A stretch of 64,000 nucleotides of DNA, from assembly GCA_030390025.1 (NCBI GenBank), contig CM059446.1, positions 15,500,001 to 15,564,000 on the forward strand. Direction: 5' to 3'. Below, one piece after another: positions 1 to 61,408 of the stretch. This DNA comes from Squalus acanthias. Lineage: Eukaryota. The position numbers and the translations under genes were made by a program. Position 1 is the first letter of the stretch. Every line of letters starts with the position of its first letter. The notes beneath the pieces were generated by a model. It worked only from the letters and a program-made list of their open reading frames with translations. It did not search any database and was not told the origin of the DNA.

Positions 1-1699
1 GCCAAGGTTGACAATATTAGATTAGATTCAGTGTGTTGATGTTTCAGTTTCCTCTCGTCTTCCTAACATTTTGAGGATGTTGAAAGCCATTGTGATTAAA
101 TAGATAGCATGAGCTTTCATATTTTTTGTACATCAATAACAAGCTAGATAGCCCATTGGTGCACCATGTTGATACATTGATGTGCTGTGCAATGAGATTT
201 AGGTTCTTCCTTTTATTTTGGGAGGAACAAGTAAAGGAGGACCATTCTTTTCCGGAAAATAATGGTTTCTGATTTACAGATTTTCATCAATTGTAGCAAT
301 GCTGTTAGTTGATCAAGGACTGGCATTGGTGACTGCATATTGCCCTGGCCTTTTGCACACTCACTCAAAATATGGTCCACCCCAGTGTTAAATGCTGCTG
401 TGTGTTGATATAAACCAGAAAACAAGGTACTGATACCTAACCTGAGAATTGCTGGATGCATGGCTACCTGTTTTCTGGGAATGAGCATTGACTGTTGCTG
501 GGGGTAAATTTTGGGAATTGTCTCTATGGTGCGAGTTATCTTCCAGGCAGCAAGTTCCACTGTCTTGTAGATGGTGACAAACATTGTTTTTTGGATATGG
601 TGTTCATTACTTCATTTGGTGTACATTTTAAGTGCTTTGATACCCTAGTAGTGGGTGGAATATTTGTAAAAGCTGAATTAAAGCCAGTAGCTTGTTTTAA
701 CAGTTGAGGAACTAAGATTGCTATCATTTGCTGAGTAATGATTAGTATTTGCTGTAAAGACACTATATATTTTGTTTCTTTTTGAGTTAACCAATAAAAT
801 TATAACAATTGGTCATTCATTATTACTTTATTTGATCAATTAGATGGTGTCCTGTAAAAATGTGTTTTCTATAAACTGAGTTCAATTTACTTTTCTCAAA
901 CCAAGACACAGCCTTCCAACCTCAGATTGAAGTTTTGTAGTAATGCAATTTGTGTTTATTTCTGTCAAAAAGTAATTGCAAATGAGATGCTAAAATTAAG
1001 TAATCCTCTTAGACGCCACTTCGATTTCCATTTATACATATTTTGAATCGTCCGGGAGGAATAAACAGGCCATTTAGAGCTGCCCTGAATAGCTTGCACC
1101 AGAATTCATAGCCTTTTAATAATTTGTTATTTCTAGTAATCCTTAGATTAAATTTCACTAATTTTACCGTGATAGTGCTGATAGTCATAAATGCTAAAAT
1201 TCCTTTACTGTCCTTATTTAGAAATGGCTGGGGTGTGATAAATGGAAGGATATCTCTTACAAAGAATCTGCGTAATGCTAATTTGTGATTGCTAAATTAA
1301 TTTTTTTTAAATAACATTACAATTTTGAATCTGTGAGCAGATCTTGTTAAATAATTTACATAAGATATAATAACTTTGGGATTGGTAAATGGCCTGTTGC
1401 TAATTTGTTTGTTTTAAAATGCTGTCAACTTTTTGACTTAAATCAAAACGTTTAACTTGAAAGTTAGTCAATTTTATTGCACTCAAGTTGTAAAAGGGTA
1501 TATTAACTTCCTGTACAAACAATAAGTTAACAGAACTTGAGGTTCTAAATATAAAACCCTTTAAGATAATTTGAAGATGCAGCAATGGTGTAGCAGATTT
1601 TTATTTACATCTGTCCTTTATTGTGTTTCTTTACTAGAGATTCCTTCGTCGGTACATTGTCTATGCGTATTGAAGTGGGTATGCCTACTAATGTTTTTT

Positions 1700-2337
1700 T
1701 TAATTTGTTTATGGGATGTGGGCGTCGCTGGCAAGGCCAGCATTTATTGCCCATCCCTAATTGCCCTCGAGAAGGTGGTGGTGAGCCGCTGCCTTAAACC
1801 GCTGCAGTCCGTGCGGTGATGGTCCTCCCACAGTGCTGTTAGGGAGGGAGTTCCAGGATTTTGACCCAGTGACGATGAAGGATCGGCGATATATTTCCAA
1901 GTCAGGATGGTGTGTGACTTGGAGGGGAACTTGGAGGTGGTGGTGTTCCCATGCGCCTGCTGCCCTTGTCCTTCTAGGTGGAAGAGGTCGCGGGTTTGGG
2001 AGGTGCTGCCGAAGAAACCTTGGCGAGTTGCTGCAGTGCATCTTGTAGATGGTACACACTGCAGCCACGGTACGCCGGTGTTAGAGGGAGTGAATATTTA
2101 AGGTGGTGGATGGGGTGCCAATCAAGCGGGCTGCTTTGTCCTGGATGGTGTTGAGCTTCTTGAGTGTTGTTGGAGCTGCACTCATCCAGGCAAGTGGGGA
2201 GTATTCCATCACACTCCTTACTTGTGCCTTGTAGATGGTGGAAAGGCTTTGGGGAGTCAGGAGGTGAGACACTCGCCGCAGCCGCAGAATACCTAGCCTC
2301 TGACCTGCTCTTGTTGCCACAATATTTATGTGGCTGG
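1700..2337 (-). mobile_element. 5'-truncated non-LTR retrotransposon (CR1/L2 group), ORF2 C-terminus and 3' end
   Basis: Minus-strand peptides RAGQRLGIL..LSTIYKAQVRSVMEYSPLAW..IQDKAARLI and SKSWNSLP. The same family occurs at 14060 and 36523. Confidence 0.85.
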
Positions 2338-2795: not shown

Positions 2796-5002
2796 TGTAT
2801 TATAATATAACATGTACTGGTTCCACTCTTTGTCCATAAGACAATATGTTCCACTATTAGTGAGCCTTTTGTTATAAATATATACCACAGGAACATACTA
2901 TTTTTCCTGTCAGTCCGCTTGTTTTCGGGTTTTTTTGGTCGGGGGTGGGGGTGGTGTATTATTTAGTCTGCTAAAGTTATCCAAAAAAAATTTGAAAAAT
3001 TCGCTTACTCGAATTAAATGTTTAAACATTTGTATCTTTAACAAAGATTGCTGATTCACAAAATCCTGTCAAAACATCAACATCAGTGCACAGAGAGAAA
3101 TGATTGTGACTTTAGTTATTTAATTGCAGTGTAAAAACAGAGGCATCATGCTAACTGAAATCTGATGTCATATTAAGAACATTAGATGTCTCCTAATGTA
3201 CTAAAGTTTTGATCTTGATGCAGTCTTGCAGATTTGTCATGATAAAATGTCAATATTGTGCTGCAAATGAAACATTTGGACCTGTGGTTCAGCTACAGTA
3301 TTCTTTGTTCAAAACAAATCATTTTCTCCTCGTGGCTAATTTGAAAATAAGACTTCTCACTACACCCATAGAAGCAAGCATTTTGACTTTAATAGTATTT
3401 TTGCCACAATATTTTACATAGTTGATCGGAATTTGCTTTTTACATCAGCTATTGCTTTAATACACTTGCTGAAAAATGTCTGCATGAAACTCTCCTGCTT
3501 TTGTGTTTGAGCTTTTGTTACCTAGCATTCTTGTCTTGGCATTGACCCCGTTGTTTACTCTATATCTGCCCTTCTCATGTCAACACAATTCTAACATACC
3601 AGTTTCCCATTTTGTAGAATTCCTTATCAAGGCATAAGTATTATTGCTGTCTCGAGGTGAAAGTTAGTAAACTGATTATGTTGAATGAACCAAGTGTCTT
3701 TTGGATATCATAGGAGGCGTAACAGGGTGCAACCAAAGACTACCGGAGCTAGAACAGATATCTAACAATTATGACTGTTGGCTGCTAGTGCTCTGCATGT
3801 CTCTGATTTCCTGTAGCATAGTACATATCCTGCCAAACCTGGTTCAGCAAATGAGCTGTGTTTATAGTTCTCTACACGTAGGAGAGGTGTCCAGGCAATA
3901 ATACTGCCGAGCTCCTCAGACAGGCGAATCAGCATGAAACTTTCACTTGTAGTCTGTGCAGTTTTTTTAAAAAAGCTTTACAACACTTAAGTGTTCTTGG
4001 CATAACCAACTAAGTCAACACAGACTGATGGTGAACCTGGGAATTTCCTGGCTGGTATAGTTCAGCTCCAAAGGTTGTAACAGGAAGGATATTTCTGAAT
4101 ACATTTCTTCATGCTGAAGCACACAACAGTTTGAATCTTGTCTAGAATATCATTAGCTGCATGCTTTTACTGGTTGAGTTATCAGCTTAGACTTGTTTTG
4201 AAGTGTTTATACTTAATACTGATTTTGTACTGAAACTCTTCTGGAAATTTCACCAGAGCATGCAGTAAATAATATTTAGATGAGATTCAAATTGTTTCTG
4301 TTTGGGCATCATAAAGAAATCTGTTCATAAATTTCCTTGAAACAGGCTTAGTTTCAGTTCACACAGATCAGTTACAACAAAACTGTCGGGATCTGGAGGT
4401 CTGAATTAGGTGATAGATTAGATGGCAGTCTGATTTTAAGATAGTGTAGGTGTTCATGGAGCATAAGTGCTGATAATGATTCATTTCCTTCAGTGATAGA
4501 CTCCCAGTAGGTCTCCATGTCAACAACTGAAATGAATTTATTGACTTTGCATTATGCTTGGTTTGCTTCACTTGATTATATCATTCAAGTGGAAATTAAG
4601 ATACCAAAATATTCCATTTCCTTTTCCATGTTTCTGTTATATAATTTCTTGTAAAGGCTTTATTAACTGCTTTTTAAAAAATTGTATCCTTGAATATCTA
4701 TATTATTAAAACTCACATGTACACATCTATAGCATCACACCTCCAAAGTGATACCTGTCTAGGGTAAAAAATTGTGCTGGACTATCAGTTAAGTATACTG
4801 ATATGCAAATATCCCATTGACTAACTGCAAAGCAAGAAAAACAGTTCCATTCTCTCGGCAAAAAGAAGAGGAACACACAAATTACTCAATCTTTTTTTTC
4901 AAACTTAGTAATTTGAAACTAACCAAGATCGTGAAGTGAACCAAATTGCTGAAATAATTTATTCCCACTGGTTTCAGCCTCCTTTTATGCATTCAGGCCA
5001 GT

Positions 5003-5291
5003 TTACAGATTTAAGGTGATTGGCAAAAGAACCAGAGGCAACATGATGGGGGGAAAAAAATTTACACAGCGAGTTGTTGTGACCTGGAATGCACAGTCTG
5101 AAAGGCTGGTGGAAGCAGATTCACTTGTAACTTTCAAAAGGGAATTGGATAAATTCTTGAAGAGAAAACATTTACAGGGCCATGGGGAAAGAGCAGAGGG
5201 AGTGGGACTAATTGAATAGCTCTCCCAAAGTGCTGGCACAGGCTCGATGGGCCAGATTGCCTCCTGTGTTGTATCATTCTATGATTCTATA
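5003..5291 (+). mobile_element. CR1 LINE 3' fragment
   Basis: Peptide FTQRVVVTWNA..VEADSLVTFKRELDKFL and an ATTCTATG-type tail. Confidence 0.85.
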
Positions 5292-5701
5292 TAGCTACAA
5301 AATTCTAACCTAAATGCAACATAATCACAGAAAATTACTAAAATTACCCCATAAAATTGTTCATTAGAAATGCCTGAAAGATATGCCTCTTTCAGCCATG
5401 GCCTTCAGCTTGAATTGGAAATTTCACCTGGGCCTTGGGTGTTGAGGATTTCCAGCTGCTACAGACTAATTCGATGTGTACTTGTGAGAGGAATGGATCA
5501 TATGAGTTGTATTTTTCACCGTATTTGATAACCTGTGACATGTTAACAAGGCAGAAAATTTACAATTAACTGGGAAGTATGGAGGCCAGAAAAGGAATCT
5601 CTCTTACGATAGCAAAATACTGCAGATGCTGGAAATCCAAAATAACAACAGAAAATGCTGGAAAAACTCAGCAGGCCAGGCAGCATCCGTGGAGAGAGAA
5701 A

Positions 5702-5743
5702 CAGAGTTAACGTTTCAGGTTGAAGACCTTTCGTCAGAACTGG
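5702..5743 (-). ncRNA. Minimal hammerhead ribozyme motif in the inverted pLTR copy
   Basis: Reverse complement reads CCAGUU-CUGACGA-A-AGGUCUUCAACCU-GAAA-CGUU-AACU, with one substitution in stem II. Confidence 0.75.
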
Positions 5744-6530
5744 AAAAAAGCAGGAAATGAAATAAATTTAAAGCAAGGATAAAGCTGGGAAAAGGGGAAG
5801 GGGATGAAAGAACAAAAGGCAAGGTCAGTGGTGGGATAGAAAAAAGGGCAACACATGCCCTTATACCTCCCCTCTCCCCACTGTCCAGGGCCCCAAACAC
5901 CCCTTCCAGGTGAAACAGCGATTTACTTGTACTTCCTGCAATTTAGTATACTGTATTCGCTGCTCACGATGTGGTCTCCTCTACATTGGGGAGACCAAAC
6001 GCAGATTGGGTGACCGCTCTGCGGAACACCTCCGTTCAGTCCGTAAGGGGGACCCCGAGCTCCCGGTGGCCTGTCACTTTAATTCTCCGCTCCACTCCCA
6101 CTCGACCTCACCGTCCTCGGCCTCTTGCATTGTTCCACGGAAGCTCAGCGTAAGCTCGAGGAACAGCACCTCATCTTTCGTTTAGGCACCCTACAGCCCT
6201 CTGGACTCAACATCGAGTTCAACAATTTCAGATCATAACCTCGGCCCCTATCACTTTTTTTTATTTTATTTTTTCATCCACCCTTTTGTTTGGCCTTTTT
6301 TTTTCCCTCCCAGAAGATGGCAGCTGTCCTTCATTCTGCTAGCCTAGTTCACACTTCATTTAGCCTCAACCTGTCACATTAACACCTCCTCTTGCCTTGA
6401 TTATCTCTTTATGTCTCTTAATCTCTCCTGCTTTCTATCCCACCACTGACCTTGCCTTTTGTTCTTTCATCCCCTCCCCCTTTTCCCAGCATTATACTTG
6501 CTTTAAATCTATTTCATTTCCTGCTTTTTT

Positions 6531-6572
6531 CCAGTTCTGACGAAAGGTCTTCGACCTGAAACGTTAACTCTG
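6531..6572 (+). ncRNA. Minimal type I hammerhead ribozyme motif in Penelope pLTR
   Basis: AGUU-CUGACGA-A-AGGUC(UUC)GACCU-GAAA-CG-UU-AACU: complete core, 5-bp stem II, palindromic loopless stem III (ACGU), 4-bp stem I. Confidence 0.8.
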
Positions 6573-7028
6573 TTTCTCTCTCCACGGATGCTGCCTGGCC
6601 TGCTGAGTTTTTCCAAGGAATCTCTCTTGTTTTTCTAGCTTTTTATACCATTAAAGCAGTCAGAGGGAAGGGGTTGCTTGATGGTCGGGAATGGATTGCG
6701 AATGTTCAGGTATGCTAGGAGCATAGTGTAGCAGGGTGGGATAAGCTGTAAACTCCAGGTCTAGGCTCCTGACTGAAGTTAGGTCCTGGATTGAGCACTC
6801 AGTTGGTCATTATTGGTAAAAAAAAATGTTTTTACATATTTGTATGCTAACCTGTTTTTACCTGGATGTGGTCAGTAGGCTCAAGAAAAAAAAATGGCAA
6901 ATGAAAAACTTTTCAAGTGCTTTGGTTATTTGATTGTGCTTGATTTACATTTCCATTCTAAGAAGTTTGCAGAAGATATAAGTTGACTTCCAGCTCATTA
7001 ACATTTAATTATGTATTTATACATAAAT

Positions 7029-7100
7029 TAGGGCTGTCAGTTAATTGCAGTGCACTCTGCAATTAATGCAGAAGTTAACGGCTATTAATTGGCAGTCCTA
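7029..7100. mobile_element. Tiny hAT-like MITE or palindrome
   Basis: Termini TAGGGCTGTCAGTTAAT and ATTAATTGGCAGTCCTA are inverted (14/17). No clean 8-bp TSD. Confidence 0.45.
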
Positions 7101-7186
7101 ATAAAGAACTTTCAATTTTGAAAACCCATTGTATTCCTCCACCCCAGCCTTTTCTGTTTTTGTAATAAAACCTCAGTTTTCTTTTG

Positions 7187-7423
7187 AACAAAAATCAAAA
7201 TACACCAGATGCTGGAAATCTGAAACAAAAACAGAACATGCTGGAGACACTCCAAGTCAGACAGCACCCGGGGAGAAAACATGAGTCAATTGGTATTTCA
7301 GGTATAAAGCTTCCCTCAGAATTTAGTGAGGTAAGATTTATACCTGAAACGTCAACTGATTCGTCTTTTCGCGACGAATGCTGCCTGAATTGCTGAGTTT
7401 CTCCAGCGTTTTCTGTTTTTGTT
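7187..7423. mobile_element. Older fold-back Penelope pLTR insertion (two inverted pLTR arms, degenerate hammerheads)
   Basis: Arms are homologous to the pLTR at 5606-5745, centred near 7322. The + arm keeps CCT-GAAA-CGTC-AACTG. Confidence 0.75.
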
Positions 7424-7429
7424 CTCAAT

Positions 7430-9410
7430 TTTTTTGGAGCCTTTCTTCATAACTCTAAACTCTCATTCATGTGAATCTTCACTGTACCATTTCATTGGGT
7501 CCAATATTCTTCCCATAATATGTTGTCCAGAACGGTACACAATACTCCAGCTGTGGCCTAACCAATCTCTTGTATCATTGCAACATCACTTCCTTGTTTT
7601 TATAGTCATTGTTCCTATATATAAGTCTCAGAATTCCATTTGTCTTTTTAAAGGCCTTTTCTACCTGTACTGCCATCTTTTAAAGATTTACATATCTGCA
7701 CTCTTGGGTCTTTCTATCTTCTACTCTAAGGCTGGAATTTTGCCAGTGCTCAGCAGACGGGATTGGTGGTGGCTCAGCAGTGAAATTTGATTTGATTGAC
7801 AGCGGGTCGGGAACCTGCTGTCAAATCATGCACACTTGCCTTTCCCAATGTCGGGTCTGCCAGTGCTGAGCAGACCTGACCGGCCGCGGCGGGGGACCTA
7901 ATTTAAACAATTGTTGACGAGCCCTTAAGAGTGAATTTAACCTTACCTTTTGACTTTAACAGCTCGCCCATGGCTTCCACGCTGCTCCTGGACCCCGTTT
8001 GTTAATCTGAGGCTGACGTTGGCCGGCCATTGATGCTACAGAGGGCATCAGCACCTGACCACATTGCTGCCCGGGAGGCCAGCGATGGCCTCACCATGGC
8101 CAGATTTGCTTCACTTGACGCTGTACACCCTGGCTGCCACATGATGCGCCAGGTTGGCACCACCCCACACCAACACCATAAAGCATCCCTACAATGTCCA
8201 AGCCATTCCTTTCACACTCACCACCATTGTGGGGGGTACCATTATGTTTTACCATTCACTGCAACTCACTAAGCCACTTCCAAAGGTGCACACAAATCTG
8301 TCCAAGAATGCAAAGTGTTGAAGATAAAGGTTTCAATGTTTGACACCATATTAACAGAAACTCTACATGAACATTGCATAAAACACCCAAATGCCTACCC
8401 TTGTGTGTTGTTAGTTGGTATGATTGCACTAGGATGAGGGTAAGTGTGAGGGGTGGCTAGTGAGATGGGGAAGTGATAATGTAGATAGAGAGGGATGGGT
8501 GGAGGTGCAAGGTAAGTTGGTGTGAGTAAGGATGTGCAGGAGTAGGGTAGGGAAGGCAGAGTGATGGGGATGTGATGAGAGGCACAGAGGTTGAGTGTGG
8601 CTTTGTACTAACATTTTGTGATCTACTGAGATCATTGAAATGTTTGCGGCACTGCACCCAGGTCCTCCTGACGACATCCCTGCTTGTGCCGCCCTCTGCA
8701 ATGTGCAACCAGGCTGTGTTGATCTCCTGGGGAGGTCTCTTCCGCCCAGGGGAAGGGAAGAGGACCTCCCTGTGTGCTGTGACTCCCTCCATAAGCAGGC
8801 TGGAGTCACAGGAGAGCCTGGGTACAGCCCTGAGTGTTTGTGTAGTCATTGTCAGTGTTTGCAGCACCTCAATGCTGTAGACCACTGACAGCAGAAATGT
8901 CAAAATAAATTTGGACATGGTCCCTTTTAAGAAAACCAGCTGATGAAGCGTCATCAAATGATGTCACCAGACCCGCTTCCTCTAATCGGCTGGGAAACTC
9001 GCTGGGCAGGCTTAACAAGCCCAATCAAGGTAAATTCATTTTACAGAGTGGGATGGAGTCACCAGCGGGGCCGCAACCTGTCACCGACCCCAACCGCCCC
9101 GGACCCTCCGAGGTCAGCAAAACCCCGGTCTAAGGTTCTTAAGTGTTCAAGGTATAATTGATTTTACTGTTCTTTCTCCCAAAATGTACTATTTCACGTT
9201 CCACTGCATTGAGCGGCATCTACCTGTCTGCCCAATCTGCTAGCCTGTTGATATCCTGGACTTTCCTGCATTCTACTCACAGCGTGCCATGTCCCAAATT
9301 TATATCATCAGCAAACTTTGATATCATTCCTCTTTTCCCTGAGTCCAAATCATTTTACACAAAAGGAAAATGAGAGATGCCAGCACAAATCCCTGTGGTT
9401 CACTATTATG
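7430..9410 (-). mobile_element. Old CR1 RT remnant split by the Harbinger insertion at 7730-9130
   Basis: The minus strand near 9305-9320 encodes KFADD, with a degenerate PQG motif near 9390. Downstream RT sequence continues at 7430-7729. Confidence 0.7.
7730..9130. mobile_element. Non-autonomous PIF/Harbinger transposon with a Myb/SANT-like gene remnant
   Basis: TAA on both flanks (7727-7729 and 9131-9133). Imperfect TIRs GGCTGGAATTTTGC and GCAAAACCCCGGTC. Minus-strand peptide LLMEGVTAHREVLFP..AWLHIAE..RRTWVQCRKHFNDL. Confidence 0.8.
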
Positions 9411-14059: not shown

Positions 14060-14385
14060 ATCTTCGACAGGACCTCCCAAACCCGCGACCTCTACCACCT
14101 AGAAGGACAAGGGCAGCAGGCGCATGGGAACACCACCGCCTCCAAGTTCCCCTCCAAGTCACACACCATCCTGACTTGGAATTATATCACCGTTGCTTCA
14201 TCGTCGCTGGGTCAAAATCCTGGAACTCCCTCCCTAACAGCACTGTGGGAGTACCTTCACCACACGGACTGCAGCGGTTCAAGAAGGCGGCTCACCACCA
14301 CCTTCTCGAGGGCAATTAGGGATGGGCAATAAATGCTGGCCTTGCCAGCGACGCCCACATCCCATGAACGAATATTTAAAAAAAT
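14060..14385 (+). mobile_element. 3' end of the same LINE family as 1700-2337
   Basis: Highly similar to the reverse complement of about 1705-2015; ends in an A-rich tail. Confidence 0.88.
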
Positions 14386-15926
14386 AATCAGGGCTGTGCA
14401 AACGTTTTATCTTAGTGAGCCACTTAGCTCTCTACCATGGAGTCCCCTGTGCCACACATAAGTAATGAGAATACAAAACAGCAAATTCACATTTAGAACC
14501 TAATTTTAAATAAACAATGTAAGCATTTTATATTATTAAATGCATTCTTTTCACATACAAACATTTCTCCATAAGGATATTAAATTGCTACATTTTGCAT
14601 ATTTATCTACTTACAAAAGTCTTGCATTCAATGTTCGTCTGTCACACTTCTGACATTACACTTTGGAGGTCATAATCACAACTTGGAGTGTCAAAATTGT
14701 TCCTGAAAAACAGAGAGCCTGTCATTTGTTGCTGGACTTTCTGACCTTGAAAATTTGTCCTCATCTCCAAAAGCAGGAGCCAGGAATTTATAAGCAACTT
14801 TTAATCCGTAAAAAATTCCATCAACAATTATCTGACCTTCATTCTTTTGCCTAATGATCTTTTCAAGATCATTTCTAAGGTATTCTGGTGGTTTATGTGT
14901 AAATAAATACTGATGTACTTCCTCGCTGTCTCTGCTCTCCCTGATATGGTGCTGGCGCTCTGCACTGTCTCAATCTCCTAAACATTTGGACTCACTATGT
15001 TCTTTTTCCTCCTACCCACCCACCACCAGCACAATCAGCATTTTGACTGCCTATACTTTGTGTAGTGCTGGAGTTGCCTTGAATTTTGTGACCTGGGTGT
15101 ACTGGAAAGGTCTGTTCCCAGTGCCGCATCTTACTGGTGGATTTCGAGTTTATGCAGCAATGGACACAACACTGAAAATGGATTTTTCCAATCTTTCAGG
15201 CTAGCAAAATTCAAGCAGGCAAACCATTACAAATTGCGCAGCCAGTGCCTGCAGGCTGTATTTGGGTAATCCAGAGTTAAACATTTTATTGGAGTTGAAA
15301 TATATTTTTACTTGTATTAGTGCAGCAGCACCCTGTGGAAAGTTATTCTTCAAGATAGCAAATAGAACAAATGTTAATTATTGGTTGTTTCTAAATATTC
15401 CTGACGTTTGGAAAACGGATGCCTTGCTAAATATATCAATGGTGGTTTATGTGTAAATAAATCGACAGTTCAAGGGGATTTTCTGTGATGGAGAATGTTT
15501 AAAGTGTTGCGGCTGTTAATCTTGGTCACTGGCATTTTGTATAGTATCATGCATTCATGTTAAGATTACATCAGTTATCCTGTTAAGGCTAAAAGGCACC
15601 TACTTGGGAGAGAATTGACTGGTTTCTTACTTGTAAAAACATTTTTAAAGGAGGCATTATTTCAAAGATTTTTTTCAAAAAAAGGAATTTGACGTGTTGT
15701 TTTCAAGGTGAAGAGGGTCAGCACTGAGCAGTGAAACATTTTCCCAGTGTCATTCTATGTTGCATGAAGCCAGATGCAGAGTGAAGGTGTCCAATAGTAT
15801 GCCTCAAACCCAAACCCTGAAGAGCACACTCCCTTTTCTCTCCTGCATCCCCCCCCAAAAAATAGCAGTATGGGCCTATACCCCGCTGGGAATTGGATTG
15901 CAACTATCCATATTTATTCCATGTAC

Positions 15927-28273: not shown

Positions 28274-30562
28274 GAGGGTTTCCTGACACAATATGTGGAT
28301 AGGCCGACAAGAGGTGGGGCCACGTTGGATTTGGTACTGGGTAATGAACCGGGCCAAGTGTTTGATTTGTATGTGGGAGAGCACTTTGGAGATAGTGACC
28401 ACAATTCGGTAACTTTCACTATTGCAATGGAGAGGGATAGGGCCATACGGCAGGGCAGGGTTTATAATTGGGGGAGGGGTAATTATGATGCGATTAGGCA
28501 AGAATTAGGGAGTATAAGATGGGAACAGAAACTATCAGGGAAAGGCACAAACGAAAAGTGGAGCTTTTTCATGGAGCAATTACTGCGTGTCCTTGATAGG
28601 TATGTCCCTGTCAGGCAGGGAGGAAATGGCCGAGTGAGAGAACCATGGTTCACAAAAGAGGTTGAATGTCTAGTCAAGAGGAAAAAGGAAGCGTATGTAA
28701 GGATGAGAAAACAAGGTTCAGTTGGGTCGATTGAGGGGTACAAGGTAGCAAGGAATGAGCTAAAAAAAGAGCTTAGGAGAGCTAGGAGGGGACATGAGAA
28801 GTCCTTGGCGGGTCGGATCAAGAAAAACCCCAAGGCTTTTTACTCTTATGTGAGAAATAAAAGAATGACCAGGGTGAGGGTAGGGCCGGTCAAGGACAGT
28901 AGTGGGAACTTGTGCATGGAGTCAGAAGAGATAGGAGAGGTGATGAATGAATACTTTTCGTCAGTGTTCACCGAGGAGAGGGGCCATGTTCTTGAGGATG
29001 AGAGTGTGATAAAGGTGGATAGGCTGGAGGTGGTAGATGTTCTGAGGGAAGATGTTTTAGTAATTTTGAAGAACCTGAGGGTCGATAAGTCCCCTGGGCC
29101 AGATGGGATATATCCTAGGATTCTTTGGGAGGCAAGGGAGGAGATTGCAGAGCCTCTGGCTTTGATCTTTGGGTCCTCACTGTCCACGGGGATGGTGCCA
29201 GAGGACTGGAGAGTGGCGAATGTTGTTCCTCTCTTCAAGAAAGGAAATAGGAATGACCCTGGTAATTATAGGCCGGTTAGTCTTACTTCGGTGGTTGGTA
29301 AGATAATGGAAAAGGTCCTGAGGGATAGGATTTATGACCATTTGGAAAGGGGCAACTTAATCAGGGATAGTCAACACGGATTCGTGAAGGGTAAGTCTTG
29401 CCTAACAAATTTGATTGAATTCTTTGAGGAGGTAACTAAGTGTGTAGATGAAGGTAGAGCAGTTGATGTCGTATACATGGATTTTAGTAAGGCGTTTGAT
29501 AAGGTTCCCCATGGTCGTCTCATGAAGAAAGTAAGGAGTTGTGGGATAGAGGGAAATTTGGCCGATTGGATAAGTAACTGGCTATCTCATAGAAGGCAGA
29601 GGGTGGTGGTGGATGGAATATTTTCGGACTGGAGACCAGTTACCAGCGGTGTGCCACAGGGGTCGGTGCTGGGTCCTCTGCTGTTTGTGATTTTTATCAA
29701 TGACTTGGAGGAGGGGACTGAAGGGTGGATCAGTAAATTTGCTGATGACACCAAGATTGGTGGAGTAGTGGATGAGGTGGAGGGCTGTTGTAGGCTGCAA
29801 AGAGACATTGATAGGATGCAGAGCTGGGCCGAAAAATGGCAGATGGAATTTAACCCTGATAAGTGCGAGGTGATTCATTTTGGTAGGGCAAATTTGAATA
29901 AGGATTACAGGGTCAACGGCAGGGTTCTGAGGAACGTGGAGGAGCAGAGGGATCTGGGGGTTCATATCCACAGATCTCTGAAGGTTGCCACTCAAGTGGA
30001 TAGAGCAGTAAAGAAGGCCTATGGTGTGTTGGCGTTTATTAACAGAGGGTTTGAGTTTAAGAACCGTGAGGTTATGCTGCAACTGTACAGGACCTTGGTG
30101 AGACCACATTTGGAATATTGTGTGCAGTTCTGGTCACCTCACTATAGGAAGGACGTGGAAGCATTGGAAAGAGTGCAAAGGAGATTTACCAGGATGCTGC
30201 CTGGTTTGGGGGGGCGGTCTTATGAGGAAAGATTGAGGGAGTTGGGGCTTTTCTCTTTAGAGCGGAGGAGGATGAGAGGCGACTTAATAGAGGTTTATAA
30301 GATGATGAGGGGGATAGATAGAGTGGATGTTCAGAGACTATTTCCTCGGGTAGAGGCAGCTGTTACAAGGGGGCATAACTATAAGGTGCATGGGGGGAGA
30401 TATAGAAGGGATGTCCGAGGTAGATTCTGTACTCACAGAGTGGTTGGGGTGTGGAATGGACTGCCTGCTGTGATAGTGGAGTCGGACACTTTAGGAACTT
30501 TCAAGCGGTTATTGGATAAGCACATGGAGCACACCAGAGTGATAGGGAGTGTGATAGCTTGA
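28274..30562 (+). CDS. CR1 ORF2, 5'-truncated (end of APE endonuclease plus complete reverse transcriptase), uninterrupted frame, no native start
   Basis: Motifs TLDLVL, SDHN, PGPDGI, YRPVSLTS, QHGF, DFSKAFD, GVPQGSVLGPLLF, FADD. Confidence 0.93.
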   Translation, partial: EGFLTQYVDRPTRGGATLDLVLGNEPGQVFDLYVGEHFGDSDHNSVTFTIAMERDRAIRQGRVYNWGRGNYDAIRQELGSIRWEQKLSGKGTNEKWSFFMEQLLRVLDRYVPVRQGGNGRVREPWFTKEVECLVKRKKEAYVRMRKQGSVGSIEGYKVARNELKKELRRARRGHEKSLAGRIKKNPKAFYSYVRNKRMTRVRVGPVKDSSGNLCMESEEIGEVMNEYFSSVFTEERGHVLEDESVIKVDRLEVVDVLREDVLVILKNLRVDKSPGPDGIYPRILWEAREEIAEPLALIFGSSLSTGMVPEDWRVANVVPLFKKGNRNDPGNYRPVSLTSVVGKIMEKVLRDRIYDHLERGNLIRDSQHGFVKGKSCLTNLIEFFEEVTKCVDEGRAVDVVYMDFSKAFDKVPHGRLMKKVRSCGIEGNLADWISNWLSHRRQRVVVDGIFSDWRPVTSGVPQGSVLGPLLFVIFINDLEEGTEGWISKFADDTKIGGVVDEVEGCCRLQRDIDRMQSWAEKWQMEFNPDKCEVIHFGRANLNKDYRVNGRVLRNVEEQRDLGVHIHRSLKVATQVDRAVKKAYGVLAFINRGFEFKNREVMLQLYRTLVRPHLEYCVQFWSPHYRKDVEALERVQRRFTRMLPGLGGRSYEERLRELGLFSLERRRMRGDLIEVYKMMRGIDRVDVQRLFPRVEAAVTRGHNYKVHGGRYRRDVRGRFCTHRVVGVWNGLPAVIVESDTLGTFKRLLDKHMEHTRVIGSVIA

Positions 30563-38591: not shown

Positions 38592-38700
38592 CCCCGTGCA
38601 AATCCCTTTCCAATCTGCAGTTTCTGCTTGGGGACAAAGGAATACAATCGAGAAAAAAAGCCAGAAGATCTCATCTCCTGTGCAGACTGTGGTAGCAGTG
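38592..38700 (+). CDS. KAT6B: KAT6B coding exon, PHD1 N-terminal half (about human exon 4)
   Basis: Acceptor ttgtttctag|CCC, donor AGTG|gtgagt, 109 nt. Translates [36 protein letters not shown](G). Not present in the ORF track. Confidence 0.96.
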
Positions 38701-39284
38701 GTGAGTTGAATCATTTATACATCAGTAATTCAACAAACGAAAAAAGGTTTTGCGTTGGGGGGATTTCATCTTCCAGCAGCATTCATTGTAAGATTTTTTT
38801 CTAAATTAACATGCCGAATTTTAAGCACAGTTCACATATGCATCCCGTTGTGATGCTCAGCAGGCATTTGTTGCATTTCAGGCTTGGATGCTGTTCCTTA
38901 ACAGAAATTCTATTCAACATGGTTTCATGTGGGGGAAAAATCATGAAAATGGACTCAATTAAAACCTAGTTGATATTGGGAATGCATGAAGAGAGAGAGA
39001 AGCAGACAGATAAGAAATGTAAACCCCTCCTCCAGTTACACTGCCAAGTTTGTACCAGAATCAATCCAGAACCCAGTTGTCAATATTAAATTTTGGATCT
39101 CCAAAAAAATGATTTATGTTGGTCACCTATTCCTGCCACTAGTGATGATGTATCTTTGTTGGTGTCCATATCTGCAATAACTAGATTTTAAAAGTCCAGG
39201 TCTGTGTTGATGTGTAAAAGCTGCAGACTTAGAAACTGTATCTAACATAGGTAAACTGTAGTCCTACTAGATACAACATCTACT

Positions 39285-40905: not shown

Positions 40906-42970
40906 AAGTATCAAAGAGGAAACTGAAAGATTCATACCAAAGCAATAGTAGAAAGTTCTTCCATGGTTAATATTAAGCTGGATTAATGAGACCAACTATG
41001 ATCATTTTACACTGCATCTAACTTAGTCCTGATACTCGATGGCAAAACTAGACAAGTTGGTAAGTGATGATTCTGGTTGCAATTTTGGGAAAAATCATGG
41101 TTTAAAAAATACCAAAGTTCAAGGATAAATCATTATAAAAATGACCAACAGTTGTTTTCATTTTGCTCGAGGTGTTGCATTTCAGAGCAGTGGGTCCTAC
41201 TTACTTTTGGGGATTATATTGGGCCCTGATCTGAACCTGGAACATGCAGATGAAATTACTGGAGATGGGTTTTTTTCAGGAGGGGTTGAAGTATGTTCTG
41301 ATGGGGGAGCAGTTAGTTGGGGTAGGTTTGCTGCCAGGTTTGGTGCACCTTGGAGGATTTTGCATGGTTTTTCGGGAAAGGGGGTGGGGTTGAGGGGGTA
41401 ATCCCCTCTAGTTTCCGACAACAGGCAGTGGAAATAATTCTTCCCTATTACCTCATCAAAATATCTCATCATAAAACATGGTTGATTTGAAAAGATATGA
41501 AATCTGCAGTATAGTCAACTTGGAACAGCAAATCAGAACGACACTGACAACTTGTGTATAGTGTGCTTGTACAGTTTGTTGGAGAGGCTATTTACTTTTC
41601 ACAATAGAAATAAAGCAAACAGCAAACAAATAATCAAATGCAAAACAAGAATCTGAGAAATAAGCAAAATTAGCTAGATATGTAAATTGCACAAACTTTG
41701 CAAATGAAATGAAAAATTAAGCCATAAATGAAATAAATACAGCATGTGGCTTGAATTGGAAAGAAAAGGAGAAAATGAAATCCAGTTCCTAACGGAGCTG
41801 AGTTCACAGGGTTTTTAAAAAAAAATGAAAAATTTAGTAGTCATAAAAACAACTATGGAGCACAATAGTGCCGTATATTGATGATTTAATGTGCATCAAC
41901 ATAGACCAGTAAGGTTTGTTTGCCCATGATTTTATGTGGCACATTCTAGCTGTGTAGTCAGAAATACTTTGCAGAGATGAGATACTTCAGAGGGAGGGAG
42001 AATCAGTCAGTGAATCACTGGAGCTGCTCTTGCACACCTCCTGTTGGCTTGGCCAAGAGTAACACTGACAGTGCCTGAATGGAAAGAAACTCAGATCCTC
42101 CCATGTCTAAATATGCTCATAATGTTTTATGGAGCTTATTACTCCATTATATGGACTTTTCCACTAGTATGAATTTAACGACATTATGAGAGACTGGTGG
42201 ATGATTAGAATTAGAAAGTGCAGAAGAGGAATGTTTTTGTTCAAATGAGGATAAAAACGGTACTTTTTTCATGATGACTTTAAGCTAAATGGAACAAAGC
42301 ACAAGTAATTTATATTTGACATTTTCTTTTGATGCCATCAATGCAACTTCACTGTTAAAAATTATTTTAAACTCGATCATACATTCTCTTACATGTCAGT
42401 TGTTTGTAGCCCAACATTTTTATCAATGGCAATAGCAAGAAAAATGTCATTATGATATGCATTAATGTTAACATTTTTGTTTTCTTTTGTCTATTGCTGG
42501 TAACCAAATGGTCAAATTTGACTTTCAGAATATTTTTGAAAACTTGTAAATGTAATGAGCTCGAGTTGAGACTTGATTGTGTAAAATAGATCTCCAGTAG
42601 TTATGGGAGAAGATGTGAGGTTTTGTAGACGAATCTTTACATGACTTTCATGGATCGACTTACATTTGAATTAATGCTGATACCCGTTCTGCCTCATTAA
42701 GATCAAATTATCTTTAATTAGCTGCACAGATGTATTGGGTGATGCAGTGGTTTCTGCAAGAACACTGAAATGTGGAATCGCATACTTAGCAATATTGATA
42801 AGACATGTTAATCTATTATACCTTACTAACAGAACTCATGCATGTTTTTTTCAATAACAGGTTTTTTTTTAATAAAGGAGAGATTTAATGAAGTTTAATA
42901 GTCATGGTTCGGCTGTTCCAGAGTATTAATAAAATTCTTGTGCAAGGCAGCTAACAGATTTATTAGTGGG

Positions 42971-43081
42971 ATAGCAAAATACTGCGGATGCTGGAAATCC
43001 GAAATAACAACAGAAAACGCTGGAAAAACTCAGCAGGCCAAGCAGCATCCGTGGAGAGAGAAACAGAGTTAACATTTCAGG
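42971..43081 (-). mobile_element. 111-bp truncated Penelope pLTR insertion with a 12-bp TSD
   Basis: TSD tttattagtggg at 42959-42970 and 43082-43093. Near-identical to 5609-5719; truncated inside the hammerhead. Confidence 0.9.
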
Positions 43082-44119
43082 TTTATTAGTGGGGTGGTTT
43101 ATGTAGAATTGTGTCCATTTTTGTATTTTTAATTTCCAATACATTGTATCAATACACAGAAAGCTACAGTACTGTTAATACAGACTATGCAATGTGCATG
43201 GTCATTCACGGGCTGGAAACTTTATTGATGAGAGGTTTTTTTATCTGTTACAATACTGTGCGTGATATAGGAAAATAGTTTGGTTTGGCATTTGAAACCA
43301 TTGGTAAAGTCTGTTCTAGGTCGTCAAAAGCATTTGATTAAAATTTGGCCAAAAACTAATACTCCTGTACGTGACACCAATGTCAGCGGGATTTTGTCTG
43401 TTTTCTCATTGTCGTAGAATGCTCACTAACATCGAGTATCAACAAATAGCTTAACAGTGCATACATTAATGGCAGATTGCTTTGCCCGCCGTAAAAATCC
43501 GAGTATTGTGTCAAATGTCTCTTCAGCGCTCATTTCAAAAATTGGCATCAGCTTTTTTTTATACCTAGAATTACATGCCTTTTTGGAATTCAGCACCACA
43601 GTCTCTCTCATTTCTATTTTTATGCCAGTTGTTAATCCAAATATGCATCACTTTCTTTTGTTCAAAATGTTACTACCTCTTATGAAGCCATGGTCTCTTG
43701 ACCGCATATTCTACATAAAGCATTGGGTTTTAATCTGTTTTACTTTGTGATGGTATGGTGAAATGTTAAGTACTCAACTGCATGTATGTGATTTTTTTAA
43801 TATGTCTGAAAAAAATTCCAGATTCCTTTGCAACAATTAATTTGCTTATCTAATTCTACTTATACTTAGGGGGAGGGTAGCACATTGTGTAACTTAAAAT
43901 TATACCTCCAATAGATCACCGTGATCCCAAACCTGCAACATAATGAAGGAGGCACTGTACCTATGTACCCAGACAAGTGTGCTCCTTCTGTTTAATCATA
44001 CAAACTTATTTTTCTTAGTATATTATTGGGTGGTTTGCTGCTTGAATACTGAAATACCATAGCCATTATATTTTGTTTGTGGATTGCCCAAGTAACACTG
44101 TGCATACTTCTTCTGTTGG

Positions 44120-48930: not shown

Positions 48931-49196
48931 TAATCCGTTCTCCTCCCAATGAAATATTACTCCACTCTTGCAAAAGGACAGAATACCCCTTTTGTGCACA
49001 GATAGTGCTAATTTGTTTGAAGCCAAAATTACCTCCTAATGGTGGATAGTGTTCGCTGAGAGATATGAGAAAAAGCATTGAACAAGAAAAGCCCACTTGT
49101 CCCATCAAACTGTTCCTTACACAGATCACATACAATCTATCTTATTGTGAGCTTTTACCCCTCAAAATATTAGGAACCAATTATTAATTTGTTCTC

Positions 49197-49826
49197 AGAA
49201 AATGTTGGAAATACTCAGCCGGTCAGTCAGCATCTGTGGAGAGAGAAACAGAGTTAACGTTTTTGGTCGGTGACCCTTCGTCAGAACTGGAAAAAGCTGG
49301 AGATGGAACAGGTTTTTAAGCAAGTGTAAGGGGAGGGGAGGAAAGAACAAAAGGGAAGGTCTGTGATAGGATGGAAGGCAGGAGAGTTTAAGAGACAAAA
49401 GGGATGATGGTGCAAGGCAAAAGGAGATGGTAATGGGACAAGTTAAGAAACAAAAGATGACTCTAGATGAAGTGTAAATGGCAATGGCAGAATGATCGAT
49501 AGCTGCCATGTGAGAGAGAGAATGAAAAAAGATAGGGGCAGAGGTTATGGTTTGAAATTGTTGAACTCGATGTTGAGTCCAGAAGGTTGTAAAGTGCCGA
49601 ATAGAAAGATGAGGTGCTGTTCCTCGAGCTTACGTTGAGCTTCATTGGAACAGTGTAAGAGGCCAAGGACAGAGAGGTCAGAGTGGGAGTGGAGCGGAGA
49701 ATTAAAGTGACAGGCGACCGGAAGCTCGGGGTCACCCTTACGGACTGAACGGAGGTGTTCCGCAAAGCGGTCACCCAATCTGCGTTTTTATTTCAGATTT
49801 CCAGCATCCGCAGTATTTTGCTTTTG
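49197..49826. mobile_element. Penelope-like element, inverted and truncated, with a 15-bp TSD
   Basis: TSD tattaatttgttctc at 49182-49196 and 49827-49841. Minus-strand GIY-YIG C-terminus GDRFAEHLRSV..HFN..RKLEEQHLIFLFGTLQPSGLNIEF. Its hammerhead at about 49251-49290 has GAAA changed to AAAA. Confidence 0.92.
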
Positions 49827-50869
49827 TATTAATTTGTTCTCGCAGTCTCAATTGTTACACGTCCCTGTGCCTGACGCTAGCAATACAAGGACTATTGAAG
49901 CTTCTTGCAGTATTTGATCATCTCGGTTTATACCAGTGTGTTTAACTGCTAATCCTTTCCCAACCGGGTAATTATTTGGCTACTTTTTGAAGGAGTTAAT
50001 TAATACAATATTAACTGCTTTTGCTGCAAGCCTAAAAGCTTTATCTACTAATATGTAATTTCACTTGGGGTTTGTTAATTTTATGGCTGTCGACCTCCTG
50101 TATTATTGCTCATGGGCAGTAGAGCTAGTTCTAGTGTTTACTGTGACCACATTCTAAGATCCAGGATTGGAATTCACCCCTTTCTGTTGTCGCTCTCTCA
50201 AATTCCGGAGCCTGTGCTAATTAACAGAATCATGGGTTGAATTGATGTGATGCAACCACTCAGGAATTGCAGTCATTTGGCTGATCCCTGACACTCAGGT
50301 TGGAGAGCAAAGGCAGGAGTTAGGGAAACCAGAGTGCTGAGCATTGAGAGGGGGAGCTATGGAATAAGGCTTAGCAATTTTTACTATATAAAGTGAGGAG
50401 AACCTGTCTTTGGAGCATTTTGGCTTCCTTTATAACTTCTAAGAAATTTTATTTTTAAGAGTGCATATGTAATGGGTTGGATGAAGCACTTTAATGGTGG
50501 CTATACGGCACAAAAATTATTTGGATTGTGTTAAAGGTTCACCAATCAGAAATGATGCTATAAAGATTTGATTGGTTGAGTTGACAAGTTGAAGGAACGG
50601 TGACTTCTTGAATCGGACTGATTGGATAATGATCTAGGGACAGTAGCCTTTGGTTTTGCTATCTGATAGATGGCAGGAAAAATATGCAAAAACACTACCT
50701 TCACACATAATTTAAATAATGTATAGATAAATTGATCCTCTAATTCTGTGCTTACCGAGTCAAAGTCAAATAATCTGCTTACTTTTACATGAGTTATATG
50801 TTTCAAATTTTTAAAGTTCTGGGTCATGATCTTCCTTCAATTTTCTTTTCTCTAATAACAGGTTCTGCA

Positions 50870-59774: not shown

Positions 59775-60664
59775 ATCGGCTGACAATGATGATGGATCTA
59801 TGACAATGGACACAGGAAGGGGGTCACCTGGTAGGGGTCAAAAGACTAAAATCTCTACCACACCTTCATCTGGTCATGCTGCGTCTCTGAAGGACTCATG
59901 CAGCAGATTGGCTCATACAGACCCCATCCTGGCTAATGCTACCACCTCCACATTCACAGTTAACCAAACAACTAATGGTCTTGTTGATGGCCTAACTAGA
60001 TTTTTTACACCCTCACCTGATGGCCGAAAGGCACGTGGTGAAATAGACTTTTCAAAGTGCTATTTGCTTAAGAAAAACTGCACTCTGAAACAATCAGCCA
60101 CTTTTAACTCCAGCATATGGTCTGCAGGTATTGCTCAAAAGTTAACCCCATTCTGTCGACCCCCACTTCCTAGTCAGAGCCCCAGTTCGCACAAATCCAG
60201 CACTTCCACTTCTGCTAACTCCCCTCAAAGTTCTTCCAGCCAATCAAGCGTACTCTCTCTTAGCAGCCTTCCGAACAGCAGCCATCTAAAGGGACTCTTT
60301 GATGGGCTATCTCATATTTACACCATTCACAGAGAGTCTCGTAAAAAGGGACATCCCAGTTATGCACCACCTAGGCGTATGCGTCATAAGCCTGAGTTGG
60401 CTCCCACACCAAAAGCCTATCCTCACTTCCGAAAAAAGAAAGGTGTTGCAAGTAGTAGCTTTATGTTCCCTGCCTTTTCCCATGGCTGGAGGGCTTCCAG
60501 GACATGCTCACTGAAATCAGTTGCTCACTTCAGACAAACTTCTTTCCTTGTAAAGCACAAGATATTAGGCAGATTAAAATATAGAGTGACCCCTCAAATG
60601 GGGACCCCCTCAGCAGGGATGGGGAGCTTGGCACTCGGAAGGATTAAACGTGATCGGGACGATG
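59775..60664 (+). CDS. KAT6B: KAT6B large Ser-rich coding exon (about human exon 8, long form)
   Basis: Acceptor ctttttcacag|A, donor GATG|gtaagc, 890 nt open. Contains [55 protein letters not shown] and [16 protein letters not shown]. Confidence 0.95.
59828..59836 (+). promoter_or_regulatory. Candidate internal 5' splice donor (shortest isoform)
   Basis: CTG|gtaggg after GRGSP, phase 1, the same phase as the terminal donor at 60664. Confidence 0.6.
60125..60133 (+). promoter_or_regulatory. Candidate internal 5' splice donor (intermediate isoform)
   Basis: CAG|gtattg after WSA, phase 1, the same phase as the terminal donor. Confidence 0.6.
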
Positions 60665-61408
60665 GTAAGCAAAGGTCCAAACCAACCTGCGTCCTGTCCA
60701 GTAAAAGTTTACTCTATTTTGTCACGTAGCCCTTAGCTTCTTCTCTTGTTCCTTCTTCACTTTTGTAGGAATGTAAACAAACAAAACATCTTGTCCCTTT
60801 TTCTAATGCTAACTAAATACCTTAACATTGTTTTTCAAATAAACTTGCATCACAGATCAAACATCTTGTTTAATTTGCATCTGTTGTAGTACTAAGAATC
60901 CCAAATGCCTGCATAGCACTGCTTTCAGCTTTGTAGAATCGCATGGCCATCCAACTTGCCACACTACACCTCTCACTCTTCCAGCCCTTTCCAAACAGCG
61001 GCTCAACCATTTTGATTGTTTGCTTCCAGTGTTGATAGTGAGAAGTGGCAGATGTGTTAACTGTAGACCTTTCTGTTCTGCATTTTCCTCAAGTTTTTTC
61101 CTCTGCTTTATTTCTTTGCATAAAGTAATTTCAACCTTACTGGATTTCAGCAACAAAGCAAATGCTGCTGTTGAATTACTTTGTGCTACTGCCTGCCTTC
61201 ACTGCATGTCTTGTTTACTTGTGTGATTATTAATATTTAGAATTGTTAGATGAAGAATGCTAATTTACCTCACCTGAGTAATAAAGCACCAGAAGAAGTG
61301 GTGTGCTTTTTATGGAGCTGTTAATAAAGCATATAATTAAATTCATGTGATGGTGGATTTTGCTCATGTACATGAACATTTTTCCTGTGCTGCTTTGGTG
61401 AACTGCAG

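What the first reader, a model, noticed from the sequence alone, without database searches (positions are those of the whole stretch)
6531..6572. Intact minimal hammerhead ribozyme motif, sense to the KAT6B pre-mRNA
Seen: the Penelope pLTR contains AGUU-CUGACGA-A-[AGGUC UUC GACCU]-GAAA-CG-UU-AACU. This has all core nucleotides, a GUU cleavage triplet (predicted cut after 6565) and a loopless palindromic stem III. Established: Penelope-like pLTRs carry minimal type I hammerheads that cleave as dimers. Inference: this copy is transcribed with every KAT6B pre-mRNA and could cut the intron if it finds a partner.
Basis: partly seen in the sequence, partly recalled or inferred. Interest (0 to 1): 0.7.

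Follow-up and report, generated by a model that had tools for sequence, protein, structure and literature searches.

The report
Penelope hammerhead zipped in shark intron
The self-cutting-RNA motif is real, but it is the standard part of a truncated jumping gene with over 40,000 look-alikes in this shark-like genome, and its own mirror-image copy 800 bases upstream is predicted to zip it shut in the KAT6B transcript, so it likely does not cut.

Summary
Observation confirmed; inference not supported. Window 6533-6569 is a minimal type I hammerhead motif, sense to KAT6B, about 12 kb into a 44-kb intron. It lies in a 1.0-kb, 5'-truncated Penelope-like insertion (broken GIY-YIG fragment, 14-bp target-site duplication) whose two ends are inverted copies (179 of 184 nt alike). 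It is transcribed first and is predicted to pair with all 37 motif bases (-64 kcal/mol, against -10 for the active dimer). An inverted element carries a hammerhead on both strands, so 'sense' means little. The genome holds 41,981 exact matches to the family pattern; one sense copy in a 150-kb gene is expected (0.84). No compatible sense partner exists in the gene. The insertion is absent from the same site in contigs of three related organisms. Published metazoan Penelope minimal hammerheads are inactive as monomers, weak as dimers, or need the element's protein. No cleavage or RNA-end data could be obtained. The scan found the same arrangement before, in this genome and in others. Ordinary.

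The parts
5592..5605 (+). Left copy of the 14-bp target-site duplication
   Evidence: Longest exact direct repeat around the two element ends, identical to 6615-6628
5606..5842 (-). Inverted, 5'-truncated pLTR copy with the long 3' tail; its transcript is antisense to the right arm
   Evidence: 179 of 184 nt identical to 6432-6615 over 5659-5842; its tail matches the long end seen in other copies
5705..5741 (-). Mirror hammerhead motif (one G-to-A change in stem II); on the + transcript it is the complement that pairs with the finding
5848..6238 (+). 3' fragment of the element's ORF: GIY-YIG endonuclease piece with CCHH residues, frameshifted near 6100
   Evidence: Pfam GIY-YIG E 9e-4, below the curated cut-off; reads in two frames against the intact version in L036; 92% identity over 768 nt to the near-full-length copy in L036
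6239..6614 (+). 3' untranslated part / pLTR of the forward copy, ending short of the tail
6533..6569 (+). Minimal type I hammerhead motif (the finding); nominal cut after U6565
6615..6628 (+). Right copy of the target-site duplication (first base shared with the element end)
7196..7431 (.). Older fold-back stub of the same element family with decayed hammerhead cores on both strands
   Evidence: 75% identity to the young copy; inverted arms; 7207-7520 covered by contigs of organisms B, C and D
38592..38702 (+). Next KAT6B coding exon (first PHD finger); closes the ~44-kb intron that holds the insertion
   Evidence: tblastn of P0001 residues 209-245, 100%

Best explanation
The motif is the pLTR hammerhead of a dead, 5'-truncated Penelope-like retroelement (likely Neptune-type) in a KAT6B intron, and in the pre-mRNA it is predicted to be locked in a ~184-bp duplex with the element's own inverted arm, so it likely does not cut. 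Shown: motif, strand, intron position, inverted arms, 14-bp target-site duplication, broken endonuclease fragment, copy number, absence from the same site in three related organisms. Inferred: (1) the unit arose in one target-primed insertion, with both nicked strands primed from the element's 3' end, which leaves two truncated copies with their tails pointing outward; (2) polymerase makes the antisense arm first, and each hammerhead base pairs with it as it emerges; (3) the hairpin leaves with the intron. The motif was probably kept by selection in the active source elements, for their own RNA, not for KAT6B.
For: Arms 97% identical. All 42 nt of the finding pair with 5702-5743 at probability 0.997 or more in the folded 5590-6660 RNA. 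In nascent-RNA snapshots 12 of 13, 25 of 25, 33 of 33 and 37 of 37 motif bases pair with the arm. Arm duplex -64.1 kcal/mol per motif, against -9.7 for the strand-swapped active dimer, -9.1 for the monomer's best fold and -22.9 for the best (non-hammerhead) two-molecule fold. 15,543 exact matches to the subfamily pattern and 41,981 to the wider pattern, strands balanced, reversed-pattern control 0; 0.84 sense copies expected per 150 kb. 25 of 79 copies picked by a non-hammerhead anchor have an inverted partner within 1.5-3 kb (my count). Single contigs of organisms B, C and D run from 5605 to 6642-6655 with only 14-16 nt between. The older stub at 7196-7431, shared with those organisms, has lost its cores. 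Literature: PMC4209133, PMC11167929, PMC8557442.
Against: Folding is computed, not probed; helicases, RNA-binding proteins or A-to-I editing could loosen the duplex. The arms are 590 nt apart, so pairing needs loop closure. The motif itself is undamaged, and across 63 aligned copies the variation sits mostly at tolerant positions (N7, loop II, 10.1, H17), so the family is probably a real ribozyme. Runs guessed to be RNA show very deep cover of this repeat family, so partners in trans could exist if those runs are RNA.
Confidence: 0.9

Rival explanations
1. One reading: the copy folds as a hammerhead, pairs with a second copy (in the same pre-mRNA or a Penelope transcript in trans, perhaps helped by the element's protein) and cuts the KAT6B intron after 6565 in a measurable share of transcripts.
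For: All core bases are present. GUU is treated as a cleavable NUH site in PMC3138052 (passages). A protein-assisted Penelope hammerhead cleaves in vitro (PMC11167929). About 42,000 genomic copies could supply partners.
Against: The upstream arm outcompetes the dimer by over 50 kcal/mol in the model. A strict descriptor over -10 kb to +140 kb finds only one other sense motif, at +123,211, of another family, with a different stem III palindrome and stem I, so it cannot pair; the same-family sense piece at +116,071 lacks the palindrome and the stem I 3' strand. Monomers were inactive and dimers weak in PMC4209133; no read ends at the site in PMC11167929. The A-U closing pair and U17 are recalled (no call) to slow cleavage.
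Confidence: 0.05
2. The copy matters to the host as double-stranded RNA rather than as a ribozyme: the 184-bp intronic hairpin is edited by ADAR or diced, and slightly changes KAT6B splicing or feeds silencing of the family.
For: Near-perfect long duplex predicted. Junction contigs suggest that a second individual carries the insertion too (X5 records 27 and 31). That long intronic duplexes are ADAR substrates is recalled, not tested.
Against: It lies about 11 kb and 32 kb from the nearest coding exons, is lineage-specific and is one of thousands of such hairpins. Editing, if present, would be a by-product.
Confidence: 0.04
3. A domesticated intronic hammerhead like those in amniote RECK, kept to regulate KAT6B.
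For: Such cases exist (PMC6155905, PMC10761166, passages), and the motif is intact and sense.
Against: Those are conserved across amniotes and cleave as monomers. This one is absent in three related organisms, has no stem III loop, sits in a recognisable insertion with a target-site duplication and matches its subfamily pattern exactly.
Confidence: 0.01

Closest known systems
[quoted passage not shown]
   Same: Conserved core, extra base between 9 and 10.1, 4-bp helix I, palindromic 15.2-16.2 with no loop III, place in the pLTR, thousands of dispersed single copies, and pairs on opposite strands 100-700 bp apart.
   Different: Closing pair 10.1-11.1 is A-U or G-U here (U at 11.1 in 62 of 63 copies), not G-C; helix II is 5 bp; copy number (about 42,000 exact pattern matches) is above the 4,000-9,000 reported there for coelacanth and Xenopus. 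No cartilaginous fish is named in the parts read.
Endonuclease-positive Penelope-like insertions with an inverted 5'-truncated copy and a 30-40-bp tail at one end; Neptune/Nematis clades with the CX2-5CxxC linker (Craig et al. 2021, PMC8557442)
   Same: Inverted truncated copy at the 5' side, tail at one end only, C-terminal GIY-YIG with CCHH residues; the near-full-length relative L036 has a CX4CxxC linker.
   Different: Nothing of kind. Clade was read from motifs only, not from a tree.
Poseidon element of Anolis carolinensis, PAc (Frangieh et al. 2024, PMC11167929)
   Same: Vertebrate pLTR hammerhead; two preferred 3' ends bracketing a tail (seen); the enzyme nicks and extends both strands, which would explain two outward-facing ends.
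   Different: PAc is of the Penelope/Poseidon clade, which lacks the cysteine linker. Protein-assisted cleavage is shown for PAc and untested for this family.
Conserved intronic hammerheads of amniotes (RECK, C10orf118; PMC6155905, PMC10761166)
   Same: Type I motif, sense in an intron of a protein-coding gene.
   Different: Those are conserved across lineages with confirmed cleavage; this one is lineage-specific, loopless and predicted to be buried in a duplex.

Membership tests
PLE minimal type I hammerhead (min-HHR) | Core C3-U4-G5-A6-N7-G8-A9, G12-A13-A14, A15.1-U16.1, H17 | tested here: met
PLE minimal type I hammerhead (min-HHR) | Unpaired base between 9 and 10.1 | tested here: met
   A6544; A in 59 of 63 copies
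PLE minimal type I hammerhead (min-HHR) | Palindromic 15.2-16.2, no or tiny loop III | tested here: met
   6561-6564
PLE minimal type I hammerhead (min-HHR) | G10.1-C11.1 closing pair (called highly conserved in PMC4209133; a typical trait, not part of its descriptor) | tested here: not met
   A-U in this copy; A 36, G 23 of 63 opposite U in 62 of 63. The pair is kept, its identity is not.
PLE minimal type I hammerhead (min-HHR) | Lies in the pLTR of a Penelope-like element | tested here: met
   Downstream of the GIY-YIG fragment; same place at both ends of the RT-EN frame in L036
PLE minimal type I hammerhead (min-HHR) | Self-cleavage as a dimer or with protein | not testable with these tools
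   Only energies were computed
Endonuclease-positive Penelope-like element | RT followed by C-terminal GIY-YIG endonuclease | tested here: inconclusive
   GIY-YIG hits just under the Pfam cut-off in the window, L036 and L038. The upstream L036 frames show DKG, GxxMG and YIDD-like motifs by eye (motif labels partly recalled) but no Pfam RT hit at E 0.01.
Endonuclease-positive Penelope-like element | 5' truncation, inverted copy, tail at one end, target-site duplication | tested here: met
Neptune clade | CX2-5CxxC linker plus CCHH in the endonuclease | tested here: met
   L036 frame; definition from PMC8557442. Shared in part with Nematis.
Neptune clade | Placement by RT phylogeny | not tested
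   No reference set was at hand
Domesticated intronic hammerhead (RECK type) | Conserved at the same site across lineages | tested here: not met
   Empty site in contigs of 3 of 3 other organisms laid
Non-LTR retrozyme | Head-to-tail tandem units, each with a hammerhead | tested here: not met
   The two motifs are inverted, and no direct-repeat partner lies nearby

The most novel reading that the evidence does not exclude
In this shark lineage a very abundant Penelope family, with an atypical A-U/G-U closing pair and a GUU site, cuts host pre-mRNAs in trans: element transcripts, helped by the element's protein, pair with the thousands of intronic sense copies, and the inverted-arm copies such as this one are the ones that escape. 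KAT6B would then be a tolerated, caged case of a genome-wide intron-cutting burden, and uncaged sense copies should be depleted from introns.
Probability: 0.04. Interest if true: 0.6.

Novelty: new member of a known kind. Interest (0 to 1): 0.1.

Why it matters
As a single locus it matters little: it is one of tens of thousands of dead copies. What Penelope hammerheads do in vivo is still open (PMC8557442 calls it unclear), and this genome has enough copies for a statistical test: compare sense and antisense, caged and uncaged intact motifs in annotated introns. A deficit of uncaged sense copies would show that these motifs do cut host RNA. This copy would be one caged data point.

Tried and rejected
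Rfam scan of the window at gathering threshold: 0 hits. Sequencing runs: no RNA holder listed. Two runs of the same organism guessed to be RNA (X21, X22) covered only the repeat and not the unique flanks, and all runs were contigs, so no RNA ends, strand or editing could be read; this is no evidence either way. Search for a cis partner over 414 kb: 23 family hits, 8 passing the strict descriptor, 2 of them sense within the gene span used (-10 kb to +140 kb): the finding and an incompatible motif. Pfam found no RT domain in the L036 frames. A rate for GUU against GUC was not found in the passages read; that GUU and an A-U closing pair are slower is recalled. A literature search for Penelope + shark + inverted + retrotransposon listed 9 papers, none on this family by title or abstract start; subscription journals and supplements were not seen, and the supplements of PMC4209133 may list shark motifs. 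Rejected: chance motif; retrozyme tandem; domesticated ribozyme; assembly artefact (both junctions appear in contigs of two individuals).

Full report
1. Observation. A core-plus-palindrome pattern matches twice in the window and never in 100 shuffles. Rfam has no hit in the window at its thresholds.

2. Host gene. The exon at 59,776-60,666 finds KAT6B proteins; the best is a catshark KAT6B at 83% identity. Laying that protein on 414 kb of contig C23 gives 16 exon-like blocks, all on +, from -6137 to +135,869 in window coordinates. The first coding exon ends near -5514 and the next starts at 38,592, so the motif is about 12 kb into a 44-kb intron and is sense to the pre-mRNA. The transcription start was not mapped; CpG-rich stretches lie near -9 to -7 kb and -22 kb.

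3. The element. A 14-bp direct repeat (5592-5605, 6615-6628) flanks a 1.0-kb unit. Inside are an inverted, truncated pLTR copy with the long tail (5606-5842, minus), a GIY-YIG fragment broken by a frameshift near 6100 (5848-6238; Pfam E 9e-4, under the cut-off) and the forward pLTR with the motif (6239-6614). The arms are 179 of 184 nt alike. A near-full-length relative (L036, 92% alike over 768 nt) has the same motif at both ends of frameshifted RT-like and endonuclease frames, and an inverted arm too. Its endonuclease is preceded by a CX4CxxC linker and holds CCHH residues, the marks of Neptune/Nematis in PMC8557442 (passages). That paper describes the inverted truncated copy and one-sided tail as typical. 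Clade was not tested by a tree.

4. Copy number. The subfamily pattern has 15,543 exact matches (7,735 +, 7,808 -) and a wider pattern 41,981 (20,783 +, 21,198 -) in 3.71 Gb, with 0 for the reversed controls. That is one per 88 kb; 0.84 sense copies are expected in a 150-kb gene. I collected 79 copies from 70 loci on contig C1 through a non-hammerhead anchor (46,611 matches genome-wide; loci taken from the first 80 or so listed). 32 of 79 pass a strict minimal-hammerhead descriptor. 25 of 79 have an inverted partner within the 1.5-3 kb examined (my count). In the 63 copies that reach the 5' box (16 dropped as truncated; the filter let a few rearranged ones through), core columns match in 56-63 of 63, while N7 (C 43, T 18), position 10.1 (A 36, G 23), loop II and H17 (T 57, C 4) vary. 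This is the pattern expected if source elements kept a working fold, though the family is young and most flanking columns are also little changed. Position 11.1 is U in 62 of 63, so the closing pair is A-U or G-U, not the G-C that PMC4209133 calls highly conserved.

5. Can this copy cut? Folding 5590-6660 pairs every base of the finding with 5702-5743 at probability 0.997 or more. The antisense arm is made first, and in nascent snapshots ending at 6545, 6557, 6565 and 6570 or later, 12 of 13, 25 of 25, 33 of 33 and 37 of 37 motif bases are paired to it. The 37-nt motif gains -64.1 kcal/mol in that duplex, against -9.7 for the strand-swapped active dimer; even two free motifs prefer another fold (-22.9). 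These are nearest-neighbour energies without tertiary contacts or proteins. Because the unit is inverted, either direction of transcription gives one sense motif and its complement. Within the gene, the other same-family copies are antisense or broken. The only other sense motif passing the descriptor (+123,211) belongs to another family with a different stem III palindrome and stem I, so it cannot form the swapped dimer.

6. Conservation. Contigs of three other organisms (X6, X7, X9; 3 of 3 laid) run across the site as single records, from 5605 to 6642-6655 with 14-16 nt between, so the insertion is absent there. A second individual of the same organism (X5) has short contigs over both junctions (5566-5627, 6589-6648; under the tool's 31-letter bridging rule, so suggestive only). 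An older fold-back stub at 7196-7431 is covered in the three other organisms and has decayed cores, which suggests the usual fate of such copies.

7. Literature. PMC4209133 (parts 1-2 of 4 read: abstract, results, discussion): minimal hammerheads in Penelope pLTRs, thousands per genome, opposite-strand pairs 100-700 bp apart, no monomer activity, low dimer and trimer activity. PMC11167929 (parts 1-2 of 4: main text): an Anolis Penelope enzyme nicks and extends both strands, starts reverse transcription at two sites that bound the tail, its hammerhead cleaves only with the protein, cleavage is not needed for insertion in vitro, and no RNA-seq reads end at the site. PMC8557442, PMC6155905, PMC10761166, PMC3138052 and bioRxiv 10.64898/2026.07.22.740005: passages only. 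No supplements were read.

8. Mechanism. Shown: anatomy, strand, copy number, empty sites. Inferred: one insertion event primed from both nicked strands gave two outward-facing truncated ends; the pre-mRNA zips them into a long hairpin; the motif cannot fold or dimerise; the hairpin is discarded with the intron, perhaps edited. I put this at 0.9. Cleavage in trans with protein help gets 0.05, a duplex-RNA effect on the host 0.04, domestication 0.01.

9. Earlier notes of the scan (looked up after my reading was formed) report the same caged arrangement in other introns of this and other shark or ray genomes. They are not independent evidence. Verdict: a real motif and an ordinary copy of a known kind; interest 0.1.

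Noticed in passing
window 7196-7431: Older ~235-bp fold-back stub of the same Penelope family with decayed hammerhead cores on both strands; covered in contigs of three other organisms.
   Followed up: partly
window 49196-49828 (minus) and 42970-43083: Two more remnants of the family in KAT6B introns: a 77%-alike truncated copy with G12 mutated and a short inverted tail, and a tail-only piece.
   Followed up: partly
G000:C23 about 15,623,205-15,623,245 (window coordinate +123,211, beyond the window): A second, different minimal hammerhead, sense in a later KAT6B intron, with another stem III palindrome and C at H17; probably from another Penelope family. Whether it has an inverted arm was not checked.
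   Followed up: no
L036:2429-6371 (G000:C1 about 18,427,400-18,431,400): Near-full-length, frameshifted copy of the element with tandem pLTRs and an inverted arm; useful for clade placement.
   Followed up: partly
Family-wide: Stem II closes with A-U or G-U instead of G-C and the site is GUU in about 9 of 10 copies; many short copies are fold-backs that break in or near the hammerhead.
   Followed up: partly
window 1684-2015 and 14061-14392: A 332-nt inverted pair (92%) of LINE 3' fragments 12 kb apart in the same intron, flanking the finding.
   Followed up: no
window 28274-30562 (+): 762-aa open frame of a LINE with an RT domain (Pfam E 1e-36), sense in the same KAT6B intron.
   Followed up: no
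G000:C1 about 6,988,650-6,992,100 and 7,052,500-7,059,150: Runs of three or four same-strand hammerheads spaced about 1.6-1.7 kb (or twice that) apart, which look like tandem arrays where dimers could form.
   Followed up: no
window coordinates about -155,088 and -79,777 (minus; upstream stretches L016-L035): Two near-identical open frames of 560-575 aa that look like Tigger/pogo-type transposases (label recalled, not searched).
   Followed up: no
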